Source: Haliscomenobacter hydrossis DSM 1100 (GTDB lineage Bacteria; Bacteroidota; Bacteroidia; Chitinophagales; Saprospiraceae). From it: a stretch of DNA of 32,000 bases. Where the stretch lies: contig NC_015510.1 of the NCBI RefSeq assembly GCF_000212735.1, positions 2,536,315 through 2,568,314 on the forward strand, in the 5' to 3' direction. Under the pieces are notes generated by a model. It searched no databases and had not been told where the DNA came from. It saw only the letters and a program-made list of their open reading frames with translations. Shown here piece by piece: positions 1,099-30,686 of this stretch; position 1 is the first letter of the stretch; each line of letters opens with the position of its first letter. A program made the translations under genes and the position numbers.

Positions 1099-1101
1099 CT
1101 T

Positions 1102-1248
1102 AAGCGAAAAGCGAATAGCGAAAAGCGAAAAGCGAAAGCGAACATGAATAGGATAGGCTTATTAAAGTTTCAAATCTTTTAATAAGTCTTCTGCTTTTCA
1201 GACCCGCCTCCGGTTTTGTTTTTCGCTTTTCGCTTTTCGTTATTCGCT
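1102..1248. repeat. Periodic-arm hairpin element, AGCGAAA (7-nt) unit type
   Basis: The left arm (AGCGAAA/AGCGAAT)x6 at 1102-1142 is the reverse complement of the right arm TTTCGCTTTTCGCTTTTCGTTATTCGCT at 1221-1248, with 1 mismatch over 28 nt. The loop contains a second small hairpin, CTTATTAAAG...CTTTTAATAAG. The element fills the leuD to leuA-like gap. Confidence 0.88.
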
Positions 1249-1255
1249 AAAAAAA

Positions 1256-2779
1256 ATGGGAAGGAAGATCGAGATCATGGACACCACCCTCCGGGATGGT
1301 GAACAAACCTCCGGCGTATCGTTTACCGATCAGGAGAAATTGAAGATAGCTCGTTTGTTGCTGGAAGAGCTCAAGGTCGACCGCATTGAAATTGCTTCTG
1401 CGCACGTCTCGGAAGGAGAATTCACGGCGGTGAAAAAGATCATGGACTGGGCCAAAGAAAAAGGCTTCATCGATCGGATCGAGATCCTGGGTTTTGTGGA
1501 TGGCGATCGTTCCCTCAACTGGATGCGCGATACCGGTGCCAAGGTGCTCAACCTGCTCACCAAAGGCTCGGAGCGCCACTGCATCCAACAGTTGCGCAAA
1601 ACCAAAGAAGAACACCTCGCCGACATTCTCGATGTGCTGACACGGGCCGAAAAACTGGGCATTCGTTCCAATGTATACCTCGAAGATTGGTCCAACGGCA
1701 TGCGTACTTCGCCCGAATACGTTTATTTTATCCTCGCAGGTTTGAGCAAAGCCGCGGTTCACCGCGTGCTTTTGCCCGATACCCTGGGCATCCTCAATCC
1801 CGACGAGACCTTCACCTATTGCGCCGATGTGCAGCAACGTTTTCCCAACCTGAGTTTTGATTTTCACGCTCACAACGACTACGACCTGGCCACCGCCAAC
1901 GTCATGGCTGCCGTAAAGGCTGGGGTGTCGGGTATTCACGTTACCCTCAATGGCCTGGGCGAACGCGCGGGCAACGTTTCCCTGTCCAGCGTGGTGGGGG
2001 TATTGAAAGACCACCTGCACTGCGAGGTTTCGGTGGACGAGAAAAAACTGTACTCCGTGAGCAAACTCGTGGAGTCCTACTCCGGCGTGCGGATTCCGAC
2101 CAACAAGCCGATCATTGGCGAGTTTGTCTTTACCCAAACCAGCGGCATCCACGCCGATGGCGACCAAAAGGGCAACCTCTACCACAACGACCTGAGCCCC
2201 GAGCGCTTCAACCGCAAGCACTCTTACGCCCTGGGTAAAATGGCGGGCAAATCCAGCATCCGCAAAAACCTGGAAGAACTGGGCATCGAACTCGACCAAG
2301 AATCGATGCGCCTGGTGACCAAAGCCGTCAACGAACTGGGCGACCGCAAAGAGGTCGTCACGCAAGAAGACCTGCCCTACATCATCGCCGATGTACTGGA
2401 CAAACAAACCCTCGCCCAGCGGGTGCGCATCAAAAACTATGCACTGTCAGTAGCCGCAGGTCTGCGTTCGGTAGCGACCCTCAGCATCGAGATTGATGGC
2501 AAAACCTACGAGCGTACCGCCGATGGCGATGGCCAATACGATGCCTTCATGAGCGCCCTGCGCCAGATTTATCAATCTTTGGGCAAAAACCTGCCCCGCC
2601 TGACGGATTACGTAGTCACCATTCCTCCGGGCGGAAAAACGGACGCCTTGTGCCAAACCGCCATCACCTGGCAACAGGATGAAGGCCGGCCCTTTAAAAC
2701 CAGCGGCCTTGACTCTGATCAGGCCATCGCGGCGATTAAGGCGACAATCAAAATGTTGAATCTTATCGAAAATCAATAA
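1256..2779 (+). CDS. LeuA/CimA-family synthase (2-isopropylmalate synthase or (R)-citramalate synthase type)
   Basis: 507 aa. It has the HMGL-like N-terminal signature [16 protein letters not shown], the metal-site motif [13 protein letters not shown], and a C-terminal LeuA-dimer-like regulatory region of about 100 aa. From memory, the N-terminus resembles the short CimA-type enzymes. It sits between leuD and leuB. Confidence 0.88.
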
Positions 2780-2780
2780 A

Positions 2781-2900
2781 GAAGGTTCGGGGGTTCGAAG
2801 GTTCGGGAGTTCGGGGGTTCAAAACGGTCACCGAGCGAAGTCGAGGTGCAGTTTTGAACCCTCGAACCCTCGAACCTTCGAACCCCCGAACCCTAAAACC
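2781..2900. repeat. Periodic-arm hairpin element, GGTTCGRR (8-nt) unit type
   Basis: The left arm at 2781-2824 is five GGTTCGRR octamers plus AAAAC. The right arm at 2851-2900 is its reverse complement, differing only by A/G transitions. The loop at 2826-2850 is GGTCACCGAGCGAAGTCGAGGTGCA. The element starts 1 nt after the stop of the upstream gene and ends 7 nt before the leuB ATG. Confidence 0.92.
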
Positions 2901-2907
2901 TTTACAA

Positions 2908-3978
2908 ATGAAATTCACTATCGCAAAACTTCCCGGCGACGGTATTGGCCCGGAAGTAGTGGCGCAAGCAGTAAAAGTACTGGAAGCCATTGGCAAAAAG
3001 TACGGTCATGAATTTGATTTTACCTTTGGCATCACTGGCGCTCACGCCATCGATGAAGTAGGTGAGCCTTACCCGGAATCGACCCACCAGATTTGTATGG
3101 ATGCCGATGCGGTACTCTTTGGGGCCATCGGTGATCCCAAGTACGACAACGATCCGAAGGCGAAAGTACGCCCTGAGCAAGGCCTCCTGGCCATGCGCAA
3201 AAAACTGGGTTTGTACGCCAACATTCGCCCCATCAATACTTTTCCTTCCCTGATCCATAAATCTCCCTTGCGCCCTGATCTGGTGGAAGGTGCCGACTTT
3301 GTGGTGATCCGTGAATTGACTGGCGGGATTTATTTTGGCGAACCCCGTGGCCGCAGCGAAAATGGCGAAAAAGCTTACGATACCTGCGTGTACACCAAAG
3401 AGGAAGTGACGCGCATCACCAAACTTGGCTTCGAATACGCCCGCCTACGCAACAAACGCATGACCGTAGTGGACAAAGCCAACGTACTGGCTACTTCCCG
3501 CTTGTGGCGCGAGACGGTGCAAGGTATGGTGGCCGATTATCCCGATGTGGAAGTGGATTACATGTTCGTCGACAACGCGGCCATGCAAATCATCCAGTGG
3601 CCTAAGAAATTTGACGTGATGCTGACCGAAAACATGTTCGGCGACATCCTTTCCGACGAGGCGAGTGTGATCACCGGGTCTTTGGGCTTGTTGCCTTCGG
3701 CTTCGGTGGGGATTCACACCTCGGTGTTTGAACCGATCCACGGCTCGTATCCCCAAGCGGCGGGTAAAGACATTGCCAACCCGATTGGCACGGTGCTTTC
3801 GGCTGCATTGCTCCTGGAGTTGGGCCTCAAACTGCCCGCCGAAGCAAAAGCGGTACGTGATGCGGTAGATGCCTCCCTGGCTGCCGATGCGGTGACGGAA
3901 GACATTGCTACGGATAAAGCCAAAGCCTTCAAAACCTCAGCGGTGGGGGATTGGTTGGCGGAGTATATTTTGAAGTAA
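2908..3978 (+). CDS. leuB: 3-isopropylmalate dehydrogenase
   Basis: The product starts [17 protein letters not shown] and carries [12 protein letters not shown], the isocitrate/isopropylmalate dehydrogenase signature. The ORF-track start at 2854 only translates the hairpin arm ([12 protein letters not shown]), so I prefer the ATG at 2908. Confidence 0.93.
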
Positions 3979-4076: not shown

Positions 4077-4169
4077 ACAATGGGAACGCGGATGACGCGG
4101 ATTAAGCGGATTTTCGCTGATCAAATCCGTCTAAATCCGCTTAATCCGCGTCATCCGCGTTCCCATTGT
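4077..4169. repeat. Perfect 36-bp-stem hairpin (GCGGAT-rich family)
   Basis: ACAATGGGAACGCGGATGACGCGGATTAAGCGGATT at 4077-4112 has its exact reverse complement ending at 4169, around a loop of about 20 nt. Confidence 0.9.
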
Positions 4170-4210: not shown

Positions 4211-4542
4211 TACGTCAAGCGTAAAGGAAAATCCTGGTTGTGTTGAACCACTTACTCGCCACTTCGTGGGGCGCTCGTCGATCCCAAATTGCTCGCTGTC
4301 GCGAGCGGGCTCGACGATCGCAACAGCCTTAGATCCTACTCCTGGTCGAACCAGCGTAAAAAGCTTGACCTGCCGTAGGCCCTAGAACCATGAAAAATAA
4401 TTCTTTATTTTTTGAGCTAAGGCAAACCTCAACGGCCACGCAGGATCCCAAACCCGCGATCGTCGAGCCCGCTCGCGACAGCGAGCATTTTGGGATCGAC
4501 GAGCGCTCACGGAGTGACGCGTAAAATCTTCATTTGAAACGC
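4211..4542. repeat. Structured ~330 bp element, copy 1 (internal 51-bp inverted repeat)
   Basis: This segment aligns with 4692-5022 at roughly 90 percent identity by eye. Arms at 4271-4321 and 4456-4506 are reverse complements, with 1 mismatch. Imperfect pairing extends the stem outward to about 4252-4525. The central loop is A+T-rich. Confidence 0.85.
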
Positions 4543-4606
4543 GCAATCTGCGACGTATTTGCTCCGCACCATCTCCCGCTGCTCCGAAAAATCTACCGCG
4601 CTTGAA

Positions 4607-4636
4607 CATCCCGAAAGTCTTGAAACTTTCGGGATG
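4607..4636. repeat. Perfect 12-bp stem hairpin, CCGAAAGT/ACTTTCGG core
   Basis: CATCCCGAAAGT-CTTGAA-ACTTTCGGGATG. It shares its 8-nt core with the hairpin at 3997-4025. Confidence 0.75.
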
Positions 4637-4691
4637 GGACTCTTGGTTTTGCGACAACTGATTGTTGTTCGCTTTTCCAAAAAGATAGGGT

Positions 4692-5022
4692 TACGTCAAA
4701 TGTAAAGGAGAATCCCGGTTGTGTTGAACCAATTACTCGCCACTACGTGGGGCGCTCGTCGATCCCAAAATGCTCGCTGGCGCGAGCGGGCTCGACGATC
4801 GCGGGGCCTTAGACCCTACTCCTGGTCGAACCAGCGTAAAAACTTGACCTGCCCTAGGCCCTAGAGCCATGAAAAATAATTCTTTACTTTTTTTTACCTA
4901 AAGCAAACCCCAACAGCCACGCAGGATCTCAAAACCCGCGATCGTCGAGCCCGCTCGCGACAGCGAGCATTTTGGGATAGAGCGCTCACGGAGTGACGTG
5001 TAAAATCTTCAGTTGAAACGCC
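4692..5022. repeat. Structured ~330 bp element, copy 2
   Basis: This is a direct repeat of 4211-4542, offset by 481 nt. It has the same internal inverted repeat (GCGCTCGTCGATCCCAAAATGCTCGCTGGCGCGAGCGGGCTCGACGATCGC and its partner), with a few substitutions and small indels. Confidence 0.85.
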
Positions 5023-5150: not shown

Positions 5151-8100
5151 CTAGAGGGCCAAACGAAACCCCAAGTGGTCGTCGCGGTACGTGGGCGCGT
5201 AGCCGCTGCGAGCGGACACGCGGCAGTTCCCCGCGCTGAGGCTCCAGCTACCGCCACGAGTCACACGGTAAGAGCCCGAGTTTGCCCCTCCAGGATTCGT
5301 CTGTTTATTGCTGGAATAATCTCCATACCTATCCTCACACCATTCCCACACATTGCCACTCATATCATAGATCCCCAATTGATTGGCCTTTTTCCGCCCC
5401 ACCGGATTGGTGCCTTTTGAATTATCGCCGTACCAGGCCACCTCATCAATCCGATCACTCCCGGCGTATTTAAACTTAACTTTCTGACCATTCTCCCCAC
5501 CCCGTGCCGCATACTCCCATTCCGCCTCGGTAGGTAAGCGGTACTGCTGTCCGGTTTTATTGCTCAACCAGCGGCAATAGGCCACCGCACCATCCCAATT
5601 CACCATGATCACCGGATATTTTTCATACCCTTTGGCGGGCTGCCAGCGGGTTTGACCATTTACGGTCGTTTTTTGCAGGCCCCATTCATTTTCCTCGATG
5701 TACCGATCCAGGTTATCTACCCGGTTGGGGTTTACGGTTACATCATTCAAAAATGCGGCATACTCCGCATTGGTTACTTCGTGTTTTCCAATCGAATAGG
5801 TACCCAAAGTCACCTCATGCGCAGGTTTTTCACTCTCGAAACAATCCTTATCTCGTTTATCCTCACAGCCCATCACAAAAGTCCCGCCATTTACCCGAAT
5901 CATTTCCGGCGCAATGGGTTTATAGGTCGTTTGCTCAATGTTCGGGCGTTGTTCATTCTGAGGTGGAGGGCTGGTCTGTTCAGGTACCCGCTGCAGGCGG
6001 ATGTCCTCAAAGCGTTCATTGCTCAAGCCACGCAATTGCGACTGGGTAAAGCTGCGCTCAAAGGGCAGATACCCCTCCATGTTTACCTTGACGGTCAAAC
6101 CCGTGATGCGCCGCAAATCGCGCCGCAAGGTGAAGGCACCGCGGGCAGTGCTCTGTCCACGGGTACTGCGGATTTCACTACCTGTATTCCACTCATAGAT
6201 CATCGTGGCCCCAGAGACAAGTTCTCCCGTGCGGTCATCCAATACTCGCCCGTTCAGAATGGCCACGGTATCCTCCGGTACTGGAGGAACGGCTACAGGG
6301 GGCAAGCCCCAGCGCTGGGGGTGGGCAATGGCCAGACGGGCCACCACCTTAATCGCATTGGGATTGGGGTTGATCTGGATCAACTCCGCCACCAAGCTAT
6401 CGGTACGGCGGAGATCACCGGGGCGATTGAGGTTGCTGCGCAAGGTAAACAAAGCAGTCCCATCCCGTGCCTTGGCCGGAAGTTCTTGAGCAAGAACAAA
6501 GCTTGGGGCGCGGGTACGGGCATTGCGCTGGGCAGGGTTGTTGGGCTGCGCGCGTTCCACGGCCAGTACCCGCAAGCGCAAACTCTTGTCGCGATTGGGG
6601 TTGGTGTAATAATTCACCTGTACTTCCAAACTCAGGTTTTGGGCTTTGCCCGGAAAAATATCAATGAGCCGCGAAGGTTCTTTTTGCAAAAGCGTCGCCA
6701 GATTGGGGCGGATACGGGTCGTATCAAAAAAGCCCAGGGTATCCAGCTCATAGTGAATGCCCTCGGCCAGGGAGGGGTCATTGGTGGTATTGGTCAGGAA
6801 ATAGATGACTCCTTCGGCGTGTTTGCTGGCGAGGGCCAGAGCTTGGAAGGCTTCCTGTTCAACCGCACGGATATTGCTTCCAGTGAAATATTGGTCCGCC
6901 AGATCGCGGTTGGCTCGGAACTGCTCGATGCTTCTATCGGTAGGTTCTGGCAAGTTAGTTCCCCGGCGCCAGGCATTGTAAAACATGACACCCCGGTTGT
7001 AGTTCAGCCGTGCCAGATTCAGCGCAGCCGTGCGTTGTGGGAGTACCAACCGATTTTTTTCCTCATATCGCTGCGCCTGCTCCAGCTTTTGGCTTACTGT
7101 TGGCCAATGCTCAACGGTTATGGGTACATTGCTACCCCCCTGGATGTTTTTGAGCATTTCCGGAAATGCCTGTTCCTTGTACACCTGCACCGCCTGGTTG
7201 TTTAAAATAACCGCACTATCTACCGCGATGATTTCTTTTATGAAAATGTTGCTGCGCAATTTGGTTTTGGGGTCAAACTGTTGCTGGCCGGGGTCTTTGC
7301 CAAAAGCCAAGCGATAAAGTTTGTCGTTATCCGTCAAGAGCAGACTGAATACCAAGACCAGGAAGGCCACAAAAAAAGCCAGCAGCCGCCAAAACGCTGC
7401 ATTGATGAGCGGTGGTTTGGGTGGCTTTGCCACTTCCGGTGTTTCTTGCTGGGGAATTTCTTCATTTCCCTCCAAAAAGCGCCGCAAGGTCGGTTCATCC
7501 GGGTTGAGCGGAAAATCGGGCTGCTGGAAAAAAGTATTGCTTTGGCTGATGTTTTGCTCATAACTTTGTTCATAAGCTTCCTCCGCTTGTGGCGCTTGTT
7601 TGGTAAATCCACCCTTTGTCGCCGGGCCCGAGCGTCGTTTGGGCGTCAATTCACGCACGGCTACACCGCCCAGATCTTCAATGTGCAAGCGATTGAACCA
7701 GCCTTGGTCCAGCAACAATTTTACCTGTGCTTTAGATTCAGGACTAGAGGGAGTCAAGGCAAAGCGTTGCACGGCCAGATTCGTTTGTAGCGCCCGATTG
7801 GCAAAACCCGGAGCAGCCTCGGCCAGCGAGGCTTCCAGTTCGTTGGCGATGGCGGTACGGGCGAGTTCTTCGTCGTACAATTGCAAATCAGCCAACAATT
7901 CTTTGCGCAAACGTGGGTTGATTTTACCCTCCTGCAAACTGGGAATCCGCGCCAGCACCAGCAGGCTATCGGCATTCAGCGGGATGTCCAGTGCTGCGCC
8001 GACGGCCAGGGTAATTTCCCAGGTTGGTGAGGGATACAAGGCCAGCGCACAAAACCAGCGGTACAAATCCGAGCCGTAGCCCAGGTATTCGGCGTGGTCG

Positions 8101-10019
8101 GAGGCACTGCGCCAGCGGCGATTGACGTCGGGTTCGGTACGGGCGGTAGCCAGGCGTTCGCGCCAGGTGCTAAAGGCCGAGGGCAGGTCATCGGGTTCCA
8201 TGCCGTTGTCGATGAAGTTGGCGGCGGCCATTTGTCCTTCCAGATCGGCGGGAAAAACGGGGAGTACCGCGTGCAAACTGGCCTCGCGGTAGTCCCAACT
8301 CTGCGGTGGGCGGGGACTGAGCAAGAGGCGGCGTTTCCAGCGCTGCAAGTCGGCTACGGGTTCGCTGCGCAGTACTTTGTTGCCCTGCGCAAAGGGGTCG
8401 AGTATGCCGTGGGCGTCCCCGAAGACGATCACCCGGTGTTCGGGGCAAAGTCGACTGACTTGCTCCAGCGTAATGCCTTGCGGATATTGGGGATTCCAAA
8501 AATGGAAAAATTCACTGCGGTAATAAAACACTTCAGCGTGTACGTCCTGATCGTGCAGCACCTTGACCAAATGGCGCAACAGTCGGCCCTGGTGGCTGGT
8601 TTCGTTTTGTTCATCCACCAAAAACAGGTAGTCGGCTGGCTTGGTGCTGCTGCGGAATTGCAAACGCGGGAATCCTCCGCTGGCAATGGTTACATCCACC
8701 GTTTTGGGTACGTCCACCTCTTGGCGCTGGCCTTCCTGGCGACGACGCAGGGCATCGGCGAGGCGAAATTGTCCGGCAAAATTGCGGATCAAGCCGTTCA
8801 GCGGGCGGAAGGGGATTTCGTAGGGCGGGCGGTCCGGCGAGGAAGTTAAGGGTTCGGGGGTTCGGGGGTTCGGGGGTTCGGGAGTTGGAGGGCGTTGCGT
8901 TTTTGCCCAAAGAAATAAAGAATAAAAAATGGCGGCAGCCAACAAGCCGACAAGCACCCAAAGGCCCCAGTTGTAGTTGGCAGTTAATCGGACGGGGGCG
9001 TATTGCAAATCGTACCAGGGCAAATACACCTGATCTTCCCCTACCCGCATGGTGGCGGAGGTGCTTGTGCTACAAAAACCACTTAAGCCTGGGCGGGTGA
9101 CCTTGAGTTCAACGCTGTAGCTCCCTTCTTCCAAATAGCGGTGCGTGGGGCTGCGCAGGGTGCTGGAGTCTCCATCGCCAAAATCCCAGTGGTATTGTAA
9201 GTCGGGCGTTGCTTCGATGACATTGGGGGTAAACGTATATGTTTCGCCGGGCGGTAAATTGGCGGGAAAATCCAATCCATCCAATTCTGGTGGATTAACA
9301 CAGTCTATCCTCAGGATGCTATCGAAATGGAAGGTGCTGTCGCGGCGTTTTTCGTATATGTCAACCGCAATGATTTTTTCGGAGCTGCCTTGTAAAGTGG
9401 TGAAAGGTACCTGCCAGCTTCGGAGGCCATCTGATTCCGCTTCGATGTTCCCGCTTACTTTATCTTTTAGACTCCAGTGGATATTGACATCAAGGGTATC
9501 AATGTTTTTGGTGTTGAGTGTAAAAACTGCGGTATCTCCCACCCGAATGGGCGTGATGTACGAAATCCCGATGGAAGTGGTTTGGGTTTCAGGTTTAAGC
9601 AGGGGATAAATGAAGTAGCCCAGGAGCGCCAATCCAAGCAGTGCCGGAAAGGTACTCCACCATTTGCGCAGCCAGGTACGCAGGTTTTTTAGCCAGATGC
9701 CTTTGGCTTCAGCTTTGTCTGCTTCGGTCGCGTTGGCGAGGATTTCGGCGTAATATTGGTCAAAAATGATGTAAAAGCGCTCTTGCTCGGCCTTGCTGTG
9801 CGCAATGACGGGCGCCAGCAGGTAGCGCAACTTCTGGGGTTCGTCCCAATGTACGCTGGCCGGGCCGCTGATGACTTGCAACAGGCGTACTTTCTCGGCG
9901 GGGCTGAGGTTGAATCCCCCGAGTTCAAGGCGGGTGAGCAGGCCGGCTAAGGGTAGGTCGATATGTGGGATTTCAGTGTCGATGGTCTTGATTGCTTTGT
10001 AGATTCCAAATTTACTCAA
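5151..10019 (-). CDS. Giant multi-domain membrane protein: PKD, degenerate CoxE-type vWA-like module, CarboxypepD_reg-like domain and C-terminal FGE-sulfatase (SUMF1) domain
   Basis: A continuous 1648-codon ORF runs from 10097 down to 5151. Three hydrophobic helices are visible: FPALLGLALLGYFIYPLL, WGLWVLVGLLAAAIFYSLFLW and FWRLLAFFVAFLVLVFSLLL. There is a PKD signature (YHWDFGDGDSSTLRSPTHRY) and a RRRQ..VDVPKTVDVTIASGGFPRLQFR..DYLFLVDEQNETS block. A GRVLDDRTGELVSGATM block suggests a carboxypeptidase-regulatory-like fold. The C-terminus has FGE-sulfatase motifs: GGTFVMG, LPTEAEWEYAARGG, NVWEWCEDRY, RGGSW and HLGFRLAL. There is no ATG or GTG in the first ~100 codons. The first 26 codons translate the arm of hairpin E, so I suggest the TTG at 10019. 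The start remains uncertain (10019 to 10097). Confidence 0.85.
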   Translation of the reverse strand: MSKFGIYKAIKTIDTEIPHIDLPLAGLLTRLELGGFNLSPAEKVRLLQVISGPASVHWDEPQKLRYLLAPVIAHSKAEQERFYIIFDQYYAEILANATEADKAEAKGIWLKNLRTWLRKWWSTFPALLGLALLGYFIYPLLKPETQTTSIGISYITPIRVGDTAVFTLNTKNIDTLDVNIHWSLKDKVSGNIEAESDGLRSWQVPFTTLQGSSEKIIAVDIYEKRRDSTFHFDSILRIDCVNPPELDGLDFPANLPPGETYTFTPNVIEATPDLQYHWDFGDGDSSTLRSPTHRYLEEGSYSVELKVTRPGLSGFCSTSTSATMRVGEDQVYLPWYDLQYAPVRLTANYNWGLWVLVGLLAAAIFYSLFLWAKTQRPPTPEPPNPRTPEPLTSSPDRPPYEIPFRPLNGLIRNFAGQFRLADALRRRQEGQRQEVDVPKTVDVTIASGGFPRLQFRSSTKPADYLFLVDEQNETSHQGRLLRHLVKVLHDQDVHAEVFYYRSEFFHFWNPQYPQGITLEQVSRLCPEHRVIVFGDAHGILDPFAQGNKVLRSEPVADLQRWKRRLLLSPRPPQSWDYREASLHAVLPVFPADLEGQMAAANFIDNGMEPDDLPSAFSTWRERLATARTEPDVNRRWRSASDHAEYLGYGSDLYRWFCALALYPSPTWEITLAVGAALDIPLNADSLLVLARIPSLQEGKINPRLRKELLADLQLYDEELARTAIANELEASLAEAAPGFANRALQTNLAVQRFALTPSSPESKAQVKLLLDQGWFNRLHIEDLGGVAVRELTPKRRSGPATKGGFTKQAPQAEEAYEQSYEQNISQSNTFFQQPDFPLNPDEPTLRRFLEGNEEIPQQETPEVAKPPKPPLINAAFWRLLAFFVAFLVLVFSLLLTDNDKLYRLAFGKDPGQQQFDPKTKLRSNIFIKEIIAVDSAVILNNQAVQVYKEQAFPEMLKNIQGGSNVPITVEHWPTVSQKLEQAQRYEEKNRLVLPQRTAALNLARLNYNRGVMFYNAWRRGTNLPEPTDRSIEQFRANRDLADQYFTGSNIRAVEQEAFQALALASKHAEGVIYFLTNTTNDPSLAEGIHYELDTLGFFDTTRIRPNLATLLQKEPSRLIDIFPGKAQNLSLEVQVNYYTNPNRDKSLRLRVLAVERAQPNNPAQRNARTRAPSFVLAQELPAKARDGTALFTLRSNLNRPGDLRRTDSLVAELIQINPNPNAIKVVARLAIAHPQRWGLPPVAVPPVPEDTVAILNGRVLDDRTGELVSGATMIYEWNTGSEIRSTRGQSTARGAFTLRRDLRRITGLTVKVNMEGYLPFERSFTQSQLRGLSNERFEDIRLQRVPEQTSPPPQNEQRPNIEQTTYKPIAPEMIRVNGGTFVMGCEDKRDKDCFESEKPAHEVTLGTYSIGKHEVTNAEYAAFLNDVTVNPNRVDNLDRYIEENEWGLQKTTVNGQTRWQPAKGYEKYPVIMVNWDGAVAYCRWLSNKTGQQYRLPTEAEWEYAARGGENGQKVKFKYAGSDRIDEVAWYGDNSKGTNPVGRKKANQLGIYDMSGNVWEWCEDRYGDYSSNKQTNPGGANSGSYRVTRGGSWSLSAGNCRVSARSGYAPTYRDDHLGFRLAL
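8846..8888. repeat. Half-arm of the GGTTCGRR element inside a CDS (four perfect GGTTCGGG octamers)
   Basis: TTAAG-(GGTTCGGG)x4-AGTTGG, with the octamers at 8851-8882. No complementary arm lies nearby. On the minus strand it is read in frame as PTPEPPNPRTPEPLT, immediately after the second TM helix of the giant protein. Confidence 0.9.
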
Positions 10020-10043
10020 TAATCTACAATGCAGTCTTAAAAA

Positions 10044-10231
10044 GTTGAGGAAGTTGAGAAGGTTGAGGAGGTTGAGGCTACCGCGAGCGACATTCAAAAG
10101 CGGCTCAATTTTTTGAACAGTCTCAAAAAGCGTTTGTCGCTTTCGTTTGTCGCTTTCGTTTGTCGCTTTCGTTTGTCGCTCGCGGTAGCCTCAACCTTCT
10201 CAACCTCCTCAACTTCCTAAACCTTCTCAAC
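10044..10231. repeat. Periodic-arm hairpin element, GTTGAGGA unit type, with a 13-nt tandem repeat in its loop
   Basis: The left arm at 10044-10092 is GTTGAGRA-type octamers plus GGCTACCGCGAGCGACA. The right arm at 10174-10231 is TGTCGCTCGCGGTAGCC plus TCAACYTY-type octamers. The loop carries about 3.8 copies of CGTTTGTCGCTTT (10131-10180). The element lies between the divergent giant gene and hmgA. Confidence 0.9.
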
Positions 10232-10276
10232 TTCTCCAAAAACCCTTAACTTGCCTCACCAAATAAAACCAACATT

Positions 10277-11434: not shown

Positions 11435-11491
11435 TTTGTAGCAAAAGATTAGTACTGAATACCCACCTGCGGTGGCTATATTTTTCTATTT

Positions 11492-11572
11492 TCTCCCGCA
11501 GATCACACAGATTTACGCAGATTTTTTCCAAAAAGGACAGTATCTGCGTAAATCTGCGCGATCCGCGGGAGA
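11492..11572. repeat. 31-bp-stem hairpin (CGCAGAT family)
   Basis: TCTCCCGCAGATCACACAGATTTACGCAGAT pairs with ATCTGCGTAAATCTGCGCGATCCGCGGGAGA at 28 of 31 positions. All three mismatches are A.C on the plus strand, which would be U.G wobbles on the minus strand. The ORF-track extension of fahA (QITQIYADFF..RKSARSAGE) is just a translation of this hairpin. Confidence 0.88.
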
Positions 11573-11618
11573 ATTATGTAAAGATGCATCTGCCGTAGGC
11601 GGGTGCTATTTCAAATTG

Positions 11619-15973: not shown

Positions 15974-16089
15974 TAGGGTTCGGGGGGTCGAGGGTTCGGG
16001 AGTTCGAAGGTTGGGTTCAAGGGTTATGCAAAACTCTACCCAACCCTCGAACTCCCGAACCTTCGAACCCTCGAACCCCCGAACCCTAA
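15974..16089. repeat. Periodic-arm hairpin element, GGTTCGRR type
   Basis: TAGGGTTCGGGGGGTCGAGGGTTCGGGAGTTCGAAGGTTGGGT ... ACCCAACCCTCGAACTCCCGAACCTTCGAACCCTCGAACCCCCGAACCCTAA. It starts 1 nt after the pfkB-family stop and ends 5 nt before the AAA gene ATG. The right arm has one more unit than the left. Confidence 0.9.
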
Positions 16090-16094
16090 GAGAA

Positions 16095-17171
16095 ATGGAC
16101 ATCCTCCGCCCACATGCCGAAAACGTCTTTGCCGCTGAACTGGTGGCACTGGCGGCCAGTGACCAACATGTACGGCCACGCAACTGGAAGCTGTCGCCCT
16201 GGGCGGTGGTGACCTACCTGATGGGCGGAAAGTTGGATACGGGTGAAGAAATCAGCCCCAAATATTTCGGTCAGCGCCGTTTGATTGAAGTGGCGGTGGC
16301 TACACTGGCTACCGATCGTGCTTTGTTGCTGATGGGGGTTCCGGGAACAGCCAAAACCTGGGTCTCGGAGCATTTGGCAGCAGCCATTAGTGGAAATTCA
16401 ACTTTATTGGTGCAAGGTACGGCGGGCATGAGCGAAGACGCTTTGCGTTACGGCTGGAATTACGCCCGCCTTTTGGCCGAAGGACCTTCCGAGAGAGCCT
16501 TGGTGGCCAGTCCGGTGATGCACGGCATGCAACACGGGCAGTTGGTGCGCATTGAAGAACTGACCCGCATCCCCTCGGATGTGCAGGATGCCCTGATTAC
16601 GATTCTTTCCGAAAAAACCTTACCCATTCCCGAACTCAATACCGAGGTGCAAGCTACCCGGGGTTTCAACATCATTGCCACAGCCAACGACCGCGATCGC
16701 GGGGTAAATGAACTCTCCAGCGCTTTGCAGCGCCGCTTCAACACCGTGGTTTTGCCCCTGCCCAGCAGCCTGGAGGAGGAAGTAGAAATTGTACAAACTC
16801 GGGTAAACCAATTGGGCAAAGCCCTTGAATTGGCCGAGGCCAAAGTACCCAGTGAAGAAATTCGCCGATTGGTGACCATCTTCCGTGAGCTGCGCTCGGG
16901 ACGCACCGAAGACGGTAAACTCAAACTCAAATCCCCTACGGCTACCCTCAGCACTGCCGAAGTCATCTCCGTCATCAACAGTGGGCAGTCGCTTTGTCTG
17001 CATTTTGGCGATGGCCAACTGCGGGCCCGCGATTTGGCGTCCAGCTTAACCGGTGCCATCATCAAAGATACTTCGCTGGATGCCGAAGTTTGGCAGGAAT
17101 ACCTGGAAACGGTAATCAAGGGCCGGGAAGGCTGGGGGGATTTGTATCGGGCGTGTAAGGAAGGAGTTTAG
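16095..17171 (+). CDS. MoxR/AAA_5-like AAA+ ATPase (no adjacent partner gene)
   Basis: Walker A is GVPGTAKT and the Walker B region is QLVRIEELTR. NIIATAN looks like sensor 1 and SALQRRF like the arginine-finger region. The ATG at 16095 gives MDILRPHAENVF. The ORF-track extension from 16011 translates the hairpin arm. Confidence 0.82.
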   Translation: MDILRPHAENVFAAELVALAASDQHVRPRNWKLSPWAVVTYLMGGKLDTGEEISPKYFGQRRLIEVAVATLATDRALLLMGVPGTAKTWVSEHLAAAISGNSTLLVQGTAGMSEDALRYGWNYARLLAEGPSERALVASPVMHGMQHGQLVRIEELTRIPSDVQDALITILSEKTLPIPELNTEVQATRGFNIIATANDRDRGVNELSSALQRRFNTVVLPLPSSLEEEVEIVQTRVNQLGKALELAEAKVPSEEIRRLVTIFRELRSGRTEDGKLKLKSPTATLSTAEVISVINSGQSLCLHFGDGQLRARDLASSLTGAIIKDTSLDAEVWQEYLETVIKGREGWGDLYRACKEGV

Positions 17172-18666: not shown

Positions 18667-19035
18667 TTATTGTAAAGGATTAATGACCATCAATCCATTT
18701 ATCCCTGTAAAATCAGTGGTATTTCTTGTAATCAACACTTCTCCAAGTACCACTGCAGTAGCAGCAATAAGAGCATCACCTAAAGACATTTTCCTTGTTT
18801 TTCGGAGTTCAACTGCTGTATGGATTACCAAATCATCGACAGGCGCAATTTGCACAATCTTGAATAGGCTTTCAAAGTAGATGATTTGAGCAGGAGTAAT
18901 TCGGTGAAAACCTAGCGTTTCGACTATGCTGATGGCAGAGGCAAAATTCCTAACATCGGTAACGTAAGAAAGCAATTGTGGTGCAAATTGTGCTTCTCCT
19001 GAATAGATGAGAATATTTGTATCGAGCAATGGCAT
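18667..19035 (-). CDS. vapC: PIN-domain ribonuclease toxin (VapC-like)
   Basis: 122 aa. The conserved acidic residues of a PIN fold are in the expected places: MPLLDTNILIY (D5), SIVETLGF (E), LGDALIAATA (D) and TRNTTDF (D). A small upstream ORF lies 12 nt away. Confidence 0.85.
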   Translation of the reverse strand: MPLLDTNILIYSGEAQFAPQLLSYVTDVRNFASAISIVETLGFHRITPAQIIYFESLFKIVQIAPVDDLVIHTAVELRKTRKMSLGDALIAATAVVLGEVLITRNTTDFTGINGLMVINPLQ

Positions 19036-21186: not shown

Positions 21187-21990
21187 CTATTGGCATTGTG
21201 GGTTGATGCCTAAAACGTATTTTTCCACCACACTAATTTCAGGGGCTGTTTCTGACCCTGAAAACCCCGTAATCATCTTGTCTTTCATTTGACTGCGTGC
21301 CAAAGTAGTCAATTTTTGTGAAACTGGCAGGTAAGACCAATGCCACTTTTCTTCATTGTACCCATCAGGGCGCTGCTCGTTTTTGACGGAATAGGGTTGG
21401 CAAAATCCAAAATTACCGGCATTTTTCAGCAACCAGGCGTAGATTTTTTGCCCTTCTCCTTGTTGAAACCACTTATCCGAGAGGTTATTCAGGTCAATAT
21501 CGGTTCCCCAATGGTGGCGCGATGCGCCGGGCATGGCGCTGTATTCCAGAATTTTCAGGGCGCGATCTTTGGCTTTGGGATAAGCTTGAGCGGCATTTTG
21601 GCCATTGGACAAAATACGGCTACCGTTCCACTTGGCTTCCCAGATGCCCTTTTGCACCTGAAAATTGCGGGCAGCGGAGATGATTTTTAAGGAAATTCCT
21701 TCTTTTTGCGCAGCAGCAAACATGGCCTGGAAGGATTCGTAAGCGTCTTTGCGCAGGTACATGTCAGCCCGATCGGAAAAAGGAGGTGTGATTTTGGTAA
21801 AATCCGGGTGTTTGGCTGGATCAAAACGCCCCATCAGGTAGTCGAGGTCAAAACCTTCCGCATGCGGTTGGCCTGGTTCATTTTGGGCTGAAGTTTCAAG
21901 AGCCTTAGCAGCGTTGGCCTTCGCGGGCGCATCACTGCAACTGGCGCTCCAGAGGCCAAAAAACAGGATGGGGATTAACAATTTCATCAT
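21187..21990 (-). CDS. Peptidase M15 (VanY / D-alanyl-D-alanine carboxypeptidase-like) lipoprotein
   Basis: Has a lipoprotein-type signal peptide (MMKLLIPILFFGLWSASCSD) and a metal-binding block (SRHHWGTDIDLN). Its ATG overlaps the upstream gene's TGA, reading TGATG on the minus strand at 21992-21988. Confidence 0.82.
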   Translation of the reverse strand: MMKLLIPILFFGLWSASCSDAPAKANAAKALETSAQNEPGQPHAEGFDLDYLMGRFDPAKHPDFTKITPPFSDRADMYLRKDAYESFQAMFAAAQKEGISLKIISAARNFQVQKGIWEAKWNGSRILSNGQNAAQAYPKAKDRALKILEYSAMPGASRHHWGTDIDLNNLSDKWFQQGEGQKIYAWLLKNAGNFGFCQPYSVKNEQRPDGYNEEKWHWSYLPVSQKLTTLARSQMKDKMITGFSGSETAPEISVVEKYVLGINPQCQ

Positions 21991-23408
21991 CAGTATTCAA
22001 ATTCTTTTTGTTCGTAAGGAAACCCAAACAGGAATTTTTCCTTGATCAAGCTGGCCACTTTAACGGGTACCATCATCTCGAATCCGGCATTGCCGCTGCG
22101 CACCAGGGAAAGTACTTCTTTGGAAAAAATGTGTAAAATATCGGGGTCGTACCCTTCGATGTCAGCAATTTGTTGGTTGTCGATCAGGTGGCGGTACAGG
22201 AATTTTGCCCCTTCGGGTACTGGCGTATTTTGCGCGGTCATCAATTCTTCGCTGCCTTCCTGCATCGCGGGGTACACGTAAATTTTGACGTTTTTGGTGA
22301 ACAGCTCTCCAAATGCAGCCAATAAACGCCCGTCCATGTTCTCGTAGTACTTGCGGTTGACCAGTTCCAGCAAAAACTGTACCCCCAGTACCAATCCAAT
22401 TTTATTGATGCGGTAGTCGGCGAGGTAGTTGATCAGTTGGGCGTGTTCTTCACAGTTGGAGATGATCACCGTTTGGCCCAGAGCATTGAGCATCACCGCC
22501 CGGTCGAGGAAGTCTTTTTCATCCAGTTCGCCGTCCAGTTTGAGGTTGGACAAGGTGATTTCGGTGAGCAGGTAGGTCTTTTTGGCATCGACATCGGGTT
22601 CGTTGCGAAATTGCTGGTAGCCACTTTTCAGCATGTCCATATTGACCAAAGTGGGCGGGCGAAAACTGCCGCGCACCACACAGACGTCTTTTTTGTACAA
22701 AAACTCCGAAGCCTGCAAGTTGCGGCCATCGGGGCCAAACATGGCCACATCCGAAAGGCCGTGTTTGATGAGGTAAAGGCTGAGCAAACGATTGTCCACG
22801 TGTTCAAAATCGGGGCCGGTGAGGCGTACCATGTCAATTTTGACCCGGCCACGCAGGCTGTCAATCAGGGATTCGAGCAGTTCTTCGGGGTCGTCGTTGT
22901 GCCGGTAACAGGCATACAGGAGGTTGACCCCCAGGATGCCAATGGCTTGTTGCTGGAGTTTGTTGTCGTTGTCCAACATGCGTACGTGCAACACGAGGTC
23001 GTTGGGTTCGCCTTCAGGAGTCAATTGAAAACGGATGCCCAACCAGCCATCACCCGCGATGGTTTTGGAATAATTGATGGCGGCGATGGTATCGGCAAAG
23101 ACGAAGAAACTGCACTCGGGGCGCTCTTGCCGCAAGCGGGTATTCATCAGCTCGTACTCGTGGTCGAGCATTTTGTACAAACGGGATTCACACACGTAGC
23201 GGCCACTGGGCTCGGGGCCGTAAATGTGATCGGAATACACCTTGTCGTAAGCCGACATGGTTTTGGCGATGGTACCAGCAGCGGCACCCACCTGGAAAAA
23301 GTAGCGGGCTACCTCCTGTCCAGCGCCAATCTCGGCAAAGGTGCCATAAATCAGTGGATCAAGGTTGATCTCAAGTGCTTTCTGTTCGGTTTCGAGTAGT
23401 TTGCGCAT
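21990..23408 (-). CDS. Cytoplasmic protein of unknown function (472 aa)
   Basis: A long ORF with non-repetitive, globular-looking sequence (for example IYGTFAEIGAGQEVARYFFQVGAAAGTIAKTMSAYD). It has no signal peptide or TM segment. I cannot place it in a named family from the sequence alone. I prefer the ATG at 23408 (MRKLLETEQK) over the start at 23513. Confidence 0.75.
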   Translation of the reverse strand: MRKLLETEQKALEINLDPLIYGTFAEIGAGQEVARYFFQVGAAAGTIAKTMSAYDKVYSDHIYGPEPSGRYVCESRLYKMLDHEYELMNTRLRQERPECSFFVFADTIAAINYSKTIAGDGWLGIRFQLTPEGEPNDLVLHVRMLDNDNKLQQQAIGILGVNLLYACYRHNDDPEELLESLIDSLRGRVKIDMVRLTGPDFEHVDNRLLSLYLIKHGLSDVAMFGPDGRNLQASEFLYKKDVCVVRGSFRPPTLVNMDMLKSGYQQFRNEPDVDAKKTYLLTEITLSNLKLDGELDEKDFLDRAVMLNALGQTVIISNCEEHAQLINYLADYRINKIGLVLGVQFLLELVNRKYYENMDGRLLAAFGELFTKNVKIYVYPAMQEGSEELMTAQNTPVPEGAKFLYRHLIDNQQIADIEGYDPDILHIFSKEVLSLVRSGNAGFEMMVPVKVASLIKEKFLFGFPYEQKEFEY

Positions 23409-23522
23409 GGGGATGGATGTTGGGATGCAAGGTACGAAAGATGCGTGGGCTTGCGTAAGGGGCTGGTTTAAATTTTTAAGGCTAAGAATATGTTTAAATC
23501 TTACACCCAACATCCTTCTTTA

Positions 23523-25676: not shown

Positions 25677-25751
25677 TGCTAGTTGATTTAAAAACACCTG
25701 TAGCAAGCAATCTGCTGCTTGCCACAGGTGCTGGTTCATGGGAAAAATGGT

Positions 25752-30618: not shown

Positions 30619-30680
30619 GGTTCGAGGGTTCGGGGGTTCGTAGGTTCGAACCCCCGAACCCCCGAACCCTCGAACCCTAA
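30616..30680. repeat. Periodic-arm hairpin element, GGTTCGRR type
   Basis: TAGGGTTCGAGGGTTCGGGGGTTCGTAGGTTCG | CGAACCCCCGAACCCCCGAACCCTCGAACCCTAA, with almost no loop. Its first three nt are the pheS TAG stop, and it ends 6 nt before the hisS ATG. Confidence 0.92.
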
Positions 30681-30686
30681 AAAATA

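What the first reader, a model, noticed from the sequence alone, without database searches (positions are those of the whole stretch)
5151..10097. Giant three-pass membrane protein combining PKD, a cytoplasmic vWA-like block, and an outward-facing CarboxypepD_reg plus FGE-sulfatase module
Seen directly. A ~1620-1648 aa ORF has three strong hydrophobic helices, at roughly residues 150, 380 and 900. Its recognisable pieces run in this order: an N-terminal soluble region of ~150 aa with no motif I recognise; TM1; a PKD-type domain (WDFGDG); and TM2. Next come the PEPPNPRTPEP linker, a ~110 aa CoxE-type vWA-like block, and ~330 aa of unassigned, partly helical sequence, followed by TM3. After that come ~450 aa unassigned, a carboxypeptidase-regulatory-like beta-sandwich, a Pro/Gln-rich linker and a full FGE-sulfatase domain. 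Inference from this topology: the PKD and FGE-sulfatase parts would be on the outside and the vWA-like part in the cytoplasm. That is a transmembrane sensor-like layout. Established knowledge: the FGE-sulfatase/SUMF1 fold is C-type-lectin-like, is widely used in bacteria as a ligand-binding module fused to signalling or conflict-system proteins, and is a common scaffold of diversity-generating-retroelement targets. I know of no characterised protein with this overall combination. More than half of the sequence carries no motif I can name.
Basis: partly seen in the sequence, partly recalled or inferred. Interest (0 to 1): 0.7.

Follow-up and report, generated by a model that had tools for sequence, protein, structure and literature searches.

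The report
Membrane-spanning vWA sensor with hypervariable tip
The giant gene is real and encodes a three-pass membrane protein from a family already predicted by computation to act in a bacterial "immune-like" system, but here it sits apart from its usual partner genes, and its outward-facing tip carries the mutational fingerprint of a diversity-generating retroelement.

Summary
The ORF (5151-10097, minus strand) is real. Its likely start is TTG 10019, giving 1622 aa. The three TM helices, the PKD domain and the C-terminal FGE-sulfatase domain are confirmed. The CoxE-type vWA block and the CarboxypepD_reg sandwich are supported more weakly.

It is not an unknown combination. It belongs to a large family (about 3500 clusters at 50% identity) centred on Saprospiria. 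In at least 22 distant relatives the gene directly follows an iSTAND gene and a MoxR-family AAA+ gene. That makes it the vWA component of the "iSTAND ternary conflict system" predicted by Kaur et al. 2020.

Two things go beyond that description:
- **Orphan locus.** The whole Haliscomenobacter clade, including this window, lacks iSTAND and MoxR within 10 kb. The gene lies beside the leu operon instead.
- **DGR signature.** The last ~100 nt (5170-5270) look like a DGR variable region. Against a syntenic relative, 27 of 28 differences fall on codon positions 1-2 between invariant blocks. A family member (L032) has a true template repeat with only A-to-N mismatches. No template repeat or reverse transcriptase lies in the window.

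Verdict: a new variant of a known, computationally predicted, experimentally untested kind. Interest is moderate.

The parts
5151..10019 (-). Gene for the 1622-aa three-pass membrane protein. The likely start is TTG 10019; the mechanical ORF extends to 10097.
9705..9950 (-). Cytoplasmic N-terminal helical domain (residues 24-105), proposed to be the CoxE-type 4-helix domain
   Evidence: AF2 helices 24-105. A conserved motif PL..L..RLELAGF.lSPA...LLAPViA.S.AEQERFY..FD.Y runs across the family. The identification as CoxE-type rests on Kaur et al. and on memory; it was not tested against a reference.
9597..9653 (-). TM1 (residues 123-141)
9042..9575 (-). Periplasmic loop: an Ig-like sandwich (149-239) followed by a PKD domain (243-326), with two family-invariant Cys residues (C240, C316)
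   Evidence: Pfam PKD E 5e-12; AF2 strands; Foldseek hits to tandem Ig/PKD structures; invariant Cys
8910..8966 (-). TM2 (residues 352-370)
8835..8902 (-). Pro-rich linker PEPPNPRTPEP, encoded by a tandem 8-nt repeat (GGTTCGGG on the + strand)
   Evidence: the linker differs in P0002
8184..8834 (-). Cytoplasmic divergent CoxE-type vWA domain (residues 396-612). It has Asp469 at the end of strand 1 and Asp535 after strand 4, and DEQxxxSH in place of the DxSxS MIDAS motif.
   Evidence: VWA_CoxE top hit in 18/30 members, window E 0.026; AF2 alternating beta/alpha pattern; alignment A4
7647..8174 (-). Conserved cytoplasmic all-helical domain (residues 616-791), family-specific and unassigned
   Evidence: AF2 pLDDT about 90; no meaningful PDB sequence match
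7329..7385 (-). TM3 (residues 879-897)
6690..7217 (-). Periplasmic TPR-like helical repeat region (residues 935-1110)
   Evidence: TPR_1/TPR_2 hits in 12 of 29 members; AF2 helical hairpins
5994..6671 (-). Periplasmic beta-sandwich stalk (residues 1117-1342). Its last module (about 1254-1322) is CarboxypepD_reg-like.
   Evidence: AF2; Foldseek tandem-sandwich hits; PF13620 in homologues mapped onto the window protein
5157..5912 (-). Periplasmic FGE-sulfatase / C-type-lectin-fold domain (residues 1370-1621), non-catalytic and TvpA-like
   Evidence: Pfam E 2.5e-57. The best solved relative is the DGR variable protein TvpA, 2Y3C. The equivalent of human FGE Cys336 is Leu.
5170..5270 (-). DGR-type variable region at the extreme C-terminus
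   Evidence: Against syntenic L007 there are 28 differences, 27 of them at codon positions 1-2 (Fisher p 8e-10 against the rest of the gene), with invariant blocks 100% identical.

Best explanation
The gene encodes an inner-membrane-spanning member of the vWA-component family of iSTAND-type MoxR-vWA ternary systems.

**Shown: architecture.**
- Cytoplasmic face: a helical N-domain, a divergent CoxE-type vWA domain, and a family-specific helical domain.
- Periplasmic face: an Ig+PKD loop, then a long C-terminal arm made of TPR-like repeats, beta-sandwiches including a CarboxypepD_reg-like module, and a non-catalytic TvpA-like C-type-lectin (FGE-sulfatase) domain.

**Shown: context and variable region.**
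- Distant orthologues are co-operonic with an iSTAND protein and a MoxR-family ATPase.
- The last ~34 codons carry a DGR variable-region signature.

**Inferred: mechanism.**
- The hypervariable lectin tip binds a foreign or changing ligand in the periplasm or envelope, such as a phage or other invader component.
- The signal crosses the membrane to the vWA module.
- In complete systems the vWA module engages the MoxR ATPase and the iSTAND-linked effector.

**Shown for this locus; open for the genome.** In this Haliscomenobacter lineage the gene has been separated from iSTAND/MoxR and from any template repeat or reverse transcriptase. It therefore either works with partners encoded elsewhere or has become a stand-alone receptor.
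For: - **Family and architecture.** There are 47 full-length relatives. A core profile finds 3498 representatives at E<=1e-3, and the top 150 share the layout. Among 29 of them, PKD occurs in 22, FGE-sulfatase in 19, CarboxypepD_reg in 10-11, and caspase, WD40, WG_beta_rep or TSP_3 in others.
- **Operon context.** iSTAND (PF19995) and an AAA+ gene lie immediately upstream in L003 and L006. tblastn finds the same pair in 22 further loci. NCBI names the ATPase 'MoxR family ATPase'.
- **Literature.** The published description of iSTAND systems matches.
- **vWA.** Supported.
- **Topology.** Supported.
- **DGR signature.**
  - Window against L007.
  - Bona fide template repeat about 100 nt downstream of family member L032, with 15 TR-A to VR-N mismatches and none of another kind inside the repeat.
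  - Best solved relative of the domain is TvpA.
  - A 27-nt core of the template repeat inferred from the two variable regions occurs exactly in a real template repeat next to an RVT_1 gene (L044).
- **Purifying selection on the cytoplasmic core.** In the vWA plus helical region, 62 of 81 differences are at third codon positions. In the N-domain, 9 of 9 are.
Against: - **No partner or DGR genes here.** No iSTAND, cognate MoxR, template repeat or reverse transcriptase lies in the 32-kb window or within 10 kb in any Haliscomenobacter-clade locus.
- **No strain-level variation in the variable region.** It is identical in all 7 members of the P0001 cluster even though they differ elsewhere. Diversification may therefore be ancient or rare.
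- **Cognate template repeat not found.** Scans of metagenome and viral contigs did not find it.
- **No experiments.** No member of this system class has experimental support, and PADLOC has no model for it.
Confidence: 0.7

Rival explanations
1. It is a stand-alone envelope or periplasmic ligand receptor or adhesin-like protein. It evolved from the ternary-system component but no longer uses MoxR, iSTAND or a DGR. Its role would be in filament or sheath biology or in nutrient or surface sensing rather than in conflict.
For: - The whole Haliscomenobacter clade (at least 10 loci) lacks the partner genes within 10 kb, and the gene sits by housekeeping leu genes.
- The variable region is invariant among 7 close strains.
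- Several sub-lineages have non-AAC-like, mutually conserved C-termini, for example P0008, P0010, P0014 and P0022.
- No Haliscomenobacter-labelled hit appears among the top 120 relatives of the partner ATPase.
Against: - The cytoplasmic vWA and helical core is under strong purifying selection and keeps all family-invariant residues. That argues for a retained cytoplasmic partner.
- The difference between the window and L007 variable regions shows DGR-type rewriting after the clade had already lost local partners.
Confidence: 0.2
2. It is a gliding-motility or T9SS-related periplasmic scaffold, with a GldK/GldJ/PorK-like FGE-sulfatase domain on a GldM-like TM-plus-stalk.
For: - NCBIfam gives partial hits to GldK (E 2e-29) and GldJ.
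- PorK structures appear among PDB sequence hits.
- Two family members gave weak GldM_1st hits.
- The host phylum is Bacteroidota.
Against: - Scores are far below the equivalog cutoffs (103 against 350 bits) and cover only the generic FGE fold.
- The post-TM3 helical region is TPR-like, not GldM-like.
- The best solved relative is TvpA, not PorK.
- No gld or por genes neighbour the gene in any locus.
- The conserved neighbours are iSTAND and MoxR.
Confidence: 0.03
3. It is an annotation or assembly artefact, with several ordinary genes fused into one ORF.
For: In the closely related MAG L007, the source annotation splits the gene into fragments (P0092 577 aa, P0355 250 aa).
Against: - At least 25 independent full-length orthologues of 1545-1633 aa come from ENA, JGI, NCBI and Logan.
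- P0001, P0357 and P0358 are intact versions of the L007 allele.
- The L007 alignment carries 70 gap positions, consistent with long-read indel errors.
Confidence: 0.01

Closest known systems
vWA component of iSTAND-type MoxR-vWA ternary conflict systems (Kaur, Burroughs, Iyer & Aravind, eLife 2020, PMC7159879)
   Same: - CoxE-type vWA with an N-terminal helical domain and N-terminal TM segments.
- A highly variable C-terminal region in which FGS (FGE-sulfatase) is the commonest module.
- Envelope-facing domains preceded by a TM segment.
- Enrichment in Bacteroidetes and in filamentous or multicellular bacteria.
- Orthologues sit in iSTAND-MoxR-vWA operons.
   Different: - At this locus, and in the whole Haliscomenobacter clade, no iSTAND or MoxR gene is adjacent.
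- A TM-Ig-PKD-TM loop lies between the N-terminal helical domain and the vWA domain. The text of that paper does not mention PKD.
- That paper ties DGRs to VMAP systems of cyanobacteria and gammaproteobacteria, not to iSTAND systems.
DGR-diversified C-type-lectin 'antigen sensor' targets in MoxR/vWA and STAND conflict systems (Dore et al., PNAS 2024, PMC10907252); TvpA of Treponema denticola (PDB 2Y3C)
   Same: - The variable region is C-terminal and sits on an FGE-sulfatase/CLec fold.
- Some of those targets carry vWA domains and some place the CLec domain in the periplasm through TM segments.
- TvpA is the best solved sequence relative.
   Different: - The described cases are Chromatiales and cyanobacteria with VMAP-type partners and a local DGR cassette. 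That paper does not mention Bacteroidota or iSTAND.
- Here no template repeat or reverse transcriptase lies within 32 kb.
CoxE / CoxD (vWA plus MoxR maturation pair of CO dehydrogenase)
   Same: - Weak profile similarity to PF05762.
- The pre-vWA 'R..R...DVP.T..ATI..GGFP' segment, and pairing of family members with a MoxR-type ATPase.
   Different: - No cox genes.
- A giant membrane-spanning protein.
- The MIDAS motif DxSxS is replaced by DEQxxxSH.
- Hits fall below Pfam's gathering threshold.
Formylglycine-generating enzyme (SUMF1) and GldK/PorK lipoproteins
   Same: They share the FGE-sulfatase fold.
   Different: - One of the two catalytic cysteines is missing: the equivalent of human FGE Cys336 is Leu.
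- Scores are far below the GldK, EgtB and PvdO equivalog cutoffs.
- It is not a lipoprotein.

Membership tests
vWA component of iSTAND-type MoxR-vWA ternary systems | A vWA domain of the CoxE type | tested here: met
   The support is sub-threshold but consistent. VWA_CoxE is the only or top Pfam hit on the isolated segment in 18 of 30 family members (best E 1.3e-4; window E 0.026, 14.4 bits against a 26.4-bit cutoff). AF2 gives a six-strand alternating beta/alpha domain with Asp at the ends of strands 1 and 4. No fold-library confirmation was possible.
vWA component of iSTAND-type MoxR-vWA ternary systems | A 4-helical CoxE-type N-terminal domain | tested here: inconclusive
   AF2 predicts a helical domain at residues 24-105, and a strongly conserved motif is present. 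No reference CoxE sequence or profile was available to compare, and the PDB profile search found nothing.
vWA component of iSTAND-type MoxR-vWA ternary systems | Adjacent MoxR-family AAA+ gene | tested here: not met
   It is not met at this locus or in any Haliscomenobacter-clade locus within 10 kb. The MoxR-like gene at 16011-17171 is unrelated to the system's ATPase and is not a conserved neighbour. It is met for 22 or more distant orthologues.
vWA component of iSTAND-type MoxR-vWA ternary systems | Adjacent iSTAND (PF19995) third component | tested here: not met
   It is absent from the window and from the close clade. It is present immediately upstream in distant orthologues.
vWA component of iSTAND-type MoxR-vWA ternary systems | Variable C-terminal module downstream of a constant core | tested here: met
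   On the same core, the C-terminus is FGE-sulfatase, caspase, WG_beta_rep, SBP_bac_3 plus LysM, WD40, TSP_3, or nothing recognisable.
DGR target (variable) protein | Variable region at the C-terminal end of a CLec/FGE-sulfatase fold | tested here: met
   FGE-sulfatase matches at E 2.5e-57. The best solved relative is the DGR protein TvpA. Variation is confined to the last ~34 codons.
DGR target (variable) protein | A cognate template repeat differing from the variable region only at adenines | tested here: not met
   There is no second copy in the window or in metagenome and viral scans. The rest of the source genome could not be searched. It is met for family member L032.
DGR target (variable) protein | A DGR reverse transcriptase nearby | tested here: not met
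   No RVT hit appears among the window ORFs scanned. ORFs 30615-31973 and small ORFs were not scanned. A gene acting in trans cannot be excluded.
DGR target (variable) protein | Hypervariation between close relatives restricted to TR-adenine sites (codon positions 1-2) | tested here: met
   Of 28 differences, 27 are at codon positions 1-2, against 232 of 581 in the rest of the gene (p 8e-10). The caveat is that the variable region is identical among 7 members of the P0001 cluster.
Formylglycine-generating enzyme (catalytic) | Catalytic cysteine pair (human FGE Cys336/Cys341) | tested here: not met
   In the alignment to 2AII, the Cys336 position is Leu. Only the second Cys is kept, as in TvpA.
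GldK/PorK, GldJ | Score at or above the NCBIfam equivalog cutoff, plus lipoprotein and gld/por gene context | tested here: not met
   The scores are 103 against 350 bits for GldK and 51 against 458 bits for GldJ. No gld or por neighbours occur in any locus.

The most novel reading that the evidence does not exclude
In the filamentous genus Haliscomenobacter, the membrane-spanning vWA/lectin protein has been freed from its MoxR and iSTAND partners. It would then work as an autonomous, DGR-tuned transmembrane receptor: a periplasm-facing 'antibody-like' sensor rewritten in trans by a distant retroelement. Its conserved cytoplasmic vWA and helical module would signal through an as-yet unknown route.
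Probability: 0.2. Interest if true: 0.65.

Novelty: new variant of a known kind. Interest (0 to 1): 0.45.

Why it matters
MoxR-vWA ternary systems and DGR-diversified lectin 'antigen sensors' are among the most intriguing predicted bacterial immune-like systems, yet none has been tested experimentally.

This family gives an unusually clear physical layout. A hypervariable lectin sits on a long periplasmic stalk and is joined through the membrane to a cytoplasmic vWA module. That layout supports the view that the variable domain is the sensor rather than the effector.

The family also extends the DGR link to iSTAND-type systems of Bacteroidota. The orphaned Haliscomenobacter clade is a natural experiment: it asks whether the vWA component can work without adjacent partners and whether DGRs service remote targets in these genomes. 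Haliscomenobacter is a filamentous organism of activated sludge and has cultured isolates (my own knowledge), so the questions may be open to experiment.

Tried and rejected
- **MoxR-like AAA_5 gene at 16011-17171 as the partner.** Rejected. It shares only P-loop-level similarity with the system's ATPase and is syntenic only in the nearest relative.
- **GldM-like stalk, suggested by weak GldM_1st hits.** Rejected. The segment-wise scan gives TPR families.
- **Fusion artefact.** Rejected.
- **Local DGR.** There is no template repeat or reverse transcriptase in the window.
- **Foldseek against PDB on both AF2 models.** It returned only generic tandem Ig, PKD or pilin sandwiches and gave no information on the vWA domain.
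- **PDB profile searches** with the vWA, helical and N-domain alignments found nothing meaningful.
- **A protein search with the 416-aa core alone** returned one hit only, because of the word-index limit.
- **PADLOC** has no model for the protein or for iSTAND.
- **Rfam** found only a tRNA in the window.
- **Scans for the cognate template repeat.** They gave 0 hits with degenerate patterns. The 27-nt inferred core gave one hit, L044. That is a genuine DGR cassette but not the cognate one: it has 22-25 mismatches at non-A positions against the window and L007 variable regions.
- **Kaur et al. supplement.** It contains no Haliscomenobacter, Saprospira or Lewinella entries in the text held.
- **More distant relatives L041-L043.** They gave no stronger vWA signal.
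Full report
**1. The observation**

The ORF 5151..10097 on the minus strand is present. Its first 26 codons are the translation of an 8-nt tandem repeat that forms a hairpin at 10037-10239. Homologues begin at or near the TTG at 10019.

- Hydropathy gives three strong helices at reader-numbering 149-167, 378-396 and 905-923.
- On the whole protein, Pfam sees only PKD (E 5e-12) and FGE-sulfatase (E 2.5e-57).
- NCBIfam gives only sub-cutoff hits to FGE-fold families: PvdO, GldK and EgtB.

**2. Family**

The protein has 47 full-length relatives. The closest (57-86% identity, 1545-1633 aa) come from Haliscomenobacter and Saprospiraceae MAGs, so it is not a fusion artefact.

The constant part runs from the N-terminus to about residue 1300. 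The C-terminal module is exchangeable on that same core:
- FGE-sulfatase in most members.
- Caspase in P0026 and P0043.
- WG_beta_rep in P0027 and P0028.
- SBP_bac_3 plus LysM in P0044.
- Nothing recognisable in P0045-P0047.

A profile of the cytoplasmic core finds 3498 representatives at 50% clustering (1631 at E<=1e-30). The best 150 all carry the core at about residue 340-400 in proteins mostly of 1300-1800 aa. Among 29 of them:

| Pfam family | Members out of 29 |
|---|---|
| PKD | 22 |
| FGE-sulfatase | 19 |
| CarboxypepD_reg | 10-11 |
| TSP_3 | 6 |
| Caspase | 4 |
| WD40 | 3 |
| WG_beta_rep | 3 |

**3. Domain map**

AlphaFold2 (AF2) was run on family alignments.

Residues 1-880, mean pLDDT 77:
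- A helical domain at 24-105, then TM1.
- Two beta-sandwiches at 149-239 and 260-326, the second being the PKD domain, then TM2.
- An alternating beta/alpha domain at 415-604.
- A well-predicted all-helical domain at 616-791.
- A disordered stretch before TM3.

Residues 898-1375, mean pLDDT 83:
- Helical hairpins followed by beta-sandwiches.

Segment assignments:
- **vWA.** Pfam scans restricted to this segment give VWA_CoxE as the only or top hit in 18 of 30 family members. The best E is 1.3e-4, and the window scores E 0.026, below the gathering score.
- **vWA strand order.** Asp469 lies at the end of strand 1 (YLFLVD) and Asp535 after strand 4 (RVIVFGD). This is the arrangement of the two vWA metal-site aspartates. 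The DxSxS motif is replaced by a family-conserved DEQxxxSH.
- **TPR-like repeats.** The helical region after TM3 hits TPR families in 12 of 29 members. An earlier weak GldM_1st lead is therefore dropped.
- **CarboxypepD_reg.** Hits in P0030 and P0039 align to window residues 1254-1322.
- **Uninformative searches.** Foldseek against PDB returned only generic Ig, PKD or pilin sandwiches. The other fold libraries were not available.
- **Still unassigned.** The helical domain at 616-791 and the N-domain have no solved sequence relatives.

**4. Topology**

- Lys/Arg residues cluster before TM1 (4 against 1) and before TM3 (3 K/R and no acidic residues, against 3 K/R and 2 acidic residues after it).
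- The loop between TM1 and TM2 carries two family-invariant cysteines.

**5. Gene context**

In Neolewinella agarilytica (L003) and a Saprospirales MAG (L006), the homologue lies directly downstream of a gene with PF19995 iSTAND (one also with a weak EAD11 hit) and an AAA+ gene of about 315 aa. A scan of one genome per species returned 37 loci.

- tblastn finds the iSTAND plus AAA+ pair immediately upstream in 22 of them, all with 39% identity or less to the window protein.
- NCBI calls the ATPase 'MoxR family ATPase'.
- None of the Haliscomenobacter-clade loci has either gene within 10 kb. That clade comprises the window, L001, L002/L010, L005, L007-L009 and L011-L014, at 58% identity or more.
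- In most of that clade (the window and 8 of the 10 distinct loci, L002 and L010 being one contig) the gene neighbours the leu operon, in two different orientations.
- The MoxR-like gene at 16011-17171 is not the system's ATPase and is not a conserved neighbour.

**6. Literature**

Kaur et al. 2020 describe 'iSTAND ternary systems' made of MoxR, a vWA protein and an inactive STAND protein. Their description has these points:
- The vWA protein tends to have a CoxE-type 4-helix N-domain.
- About 28% have N-terminal TM segments.
- The C-terminal region is highly variable, with FGS (their name for the FGE-sulfatase-type domain) the commonest module at 22%.
- Peptidoglycan-associating domains (PEGA, OmpA, PASTA, Sel1) are typically preceded by a TM segment.

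The window protein fits this description. That paper's text does not mention PKD, and it links DGRs to VMAP systems rather than iSTAND systems. Dore et al. 2024 propose that DGR-diversified CLec domains on such proteins are antigen sensors. They note periplasmic cases, but in Chromatiales and cyanobacteria, and they do not mention Bacteroidota or iSTAND. PADLOC has no model.

**7. DGR signature**

The syntenic relative L007 is a Haliscomenobacter MAG with 87-95% nucleotide identity. It differs from the window at the 3' end of the gene in a striking way.

- Within 5170-5270 there are 28 differences, 27 of them at codon positions 1-2.
- These lie between blocks that are 100% identical, and 30 identical bases precede them.
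- Elsewhere in the gene most differences are at third positions (Fisher p 8e-10).
- Putting A at each variable site gives an Asn-rich template, SNRVNRGGSWNNSERNCRVSNRNNNTPTNRNNHLG. From my own knowledge this is typical of CLec-type DGR template repeats.
- Family member L032 has a real template repeat about 100 nt downstream of its stop codon. All 15 mismatches inside the repeat are TR-A to VR-N.
- The domain's best solved relative is the DGR protein TvpA. It lacks the first catalytic Cys of FGE.
- A 27-nt core of the inferred template occurs exactly in a metagenomic template repeat that sits beside an RVT_1 gene and a small FGE-sulfatase target (L044). That template is not the cognate one.

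Against current activity:
- No template repeat or reverse transcriptase lies in the window.
- The variable region is identical in all seven members of the P0001 cluster, although they differ elsewhere.
- Some sub-lineages have conserved C-termini that do not look AAC-derived.

**8. Interpretation**

Shown:
- The architecture and the probable topology.
- Family membership by homology.
- The operon context of distant orthologues.
- The orphan status of this clade.
- A DGR-type variable-region footprint.

Inferred:
- The protein couples ligand recognition by a diversifiable periplasmic lectin tip to a cytoplasmic vWA module.
- In complete systems that module works with MoxR and iSTAND-linked effectors.

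The cytoplasmic core is under strong purifying selection: 62 of 81 differences in the vWA plus helical region, and 9 of 9 in the N-domain, are at third positions. It therefore still does something on the inside. Whether its partners are encoded elsewhere, or the protein has become autonomous, cannot be decided from this window.

**9. Verdict**

It is wrong in calling the combination unknown. The protein is a new variant (orphaned, and an iSTAND-type member carrying a DGR footprint) of a kind that has been predicted computationally and never tested experimentally.

Noticed in passing
window 1100-1251, 2776-2892, 4077-4169, 10037-10239, 11491-11573; also 8835-8902 inside the gene: Intergenic hairpins whose arms are tandem arrays of 8-nt units. 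Each site uses its own octamer. The GGTTCGGG array also occurs inside the giant gene, where it encodes the Pro-rich linker after TM2, and the linker differs between close homologues. This looks like a genome-wide family of octamer-repeat palindromes that can be tolerated in a coding linker.
   Followed up: partly
window 4211-5021: A tandem duplication of about 480 nt lies just downstream of the gene's stop codon. It contains four ~50-nt copies in alternating orientation. Window 4322-4982 is absent from the syntenic relative L007. It gave no Rfam hit, and its nature (MITE-like or a recombination product) is unknown.
   Followed up: partly
window 21990-27491 (-): Three consecutive large ORFs (507, 738 and 579 aa) with no Pfam hit lie between a VanY-like carboxypeptidase gene and a Wzy_C O-antigen-ligase-like gene.
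   Followed up: no
window 16011-17171 (+): A MoxR-type AAA_5 ATPase (with a weak bpMoxR hit) has no adjacent vWA gene. It lies between a PfkB kinase gene and a MatE transporter gene. It is not related to the ternary-system ATPase.
   Followed up: yes
window 18667-19035 (-): A PIN-domain (VapC-like) ORF. A possible small antitoxin ORF upstream was not examined.
   Followed up: no
L044 1-4445 (JGI contig Ga0082212_10000744): A compact DGR cassette. It has a template repeat at 97-215, a short (211 aa) RVT_1 ORF at 378-1013, two NADAR-domain genes, and a 276-aa stand-alone FGE-sulfatase target at 2469-3299. The target's 3' end differs from the template repeat mostly at adenines.
   Followed up: partly
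L032 6543-6668: In a Lewinellaceae MAG, a complete iSTAND-MoxR-vWA operon is followed about 100 nt after the vWA gene's stop by its DGR template repeat. The contig ends there, so the reverse transcriptase is not seen. This is a direct iSTAND-DGR link.
   Followed up: yes
L007 9987-14859: The orthologue in the Haliscomenobacter MAG JADKCX01 is broken into fragments in its annotation (577 aa and 250 aa pieces). Intact alleles with the same variable region exist in ENA assemblies, so the breaks are probably long-read indel errors.
   Followed up: partly
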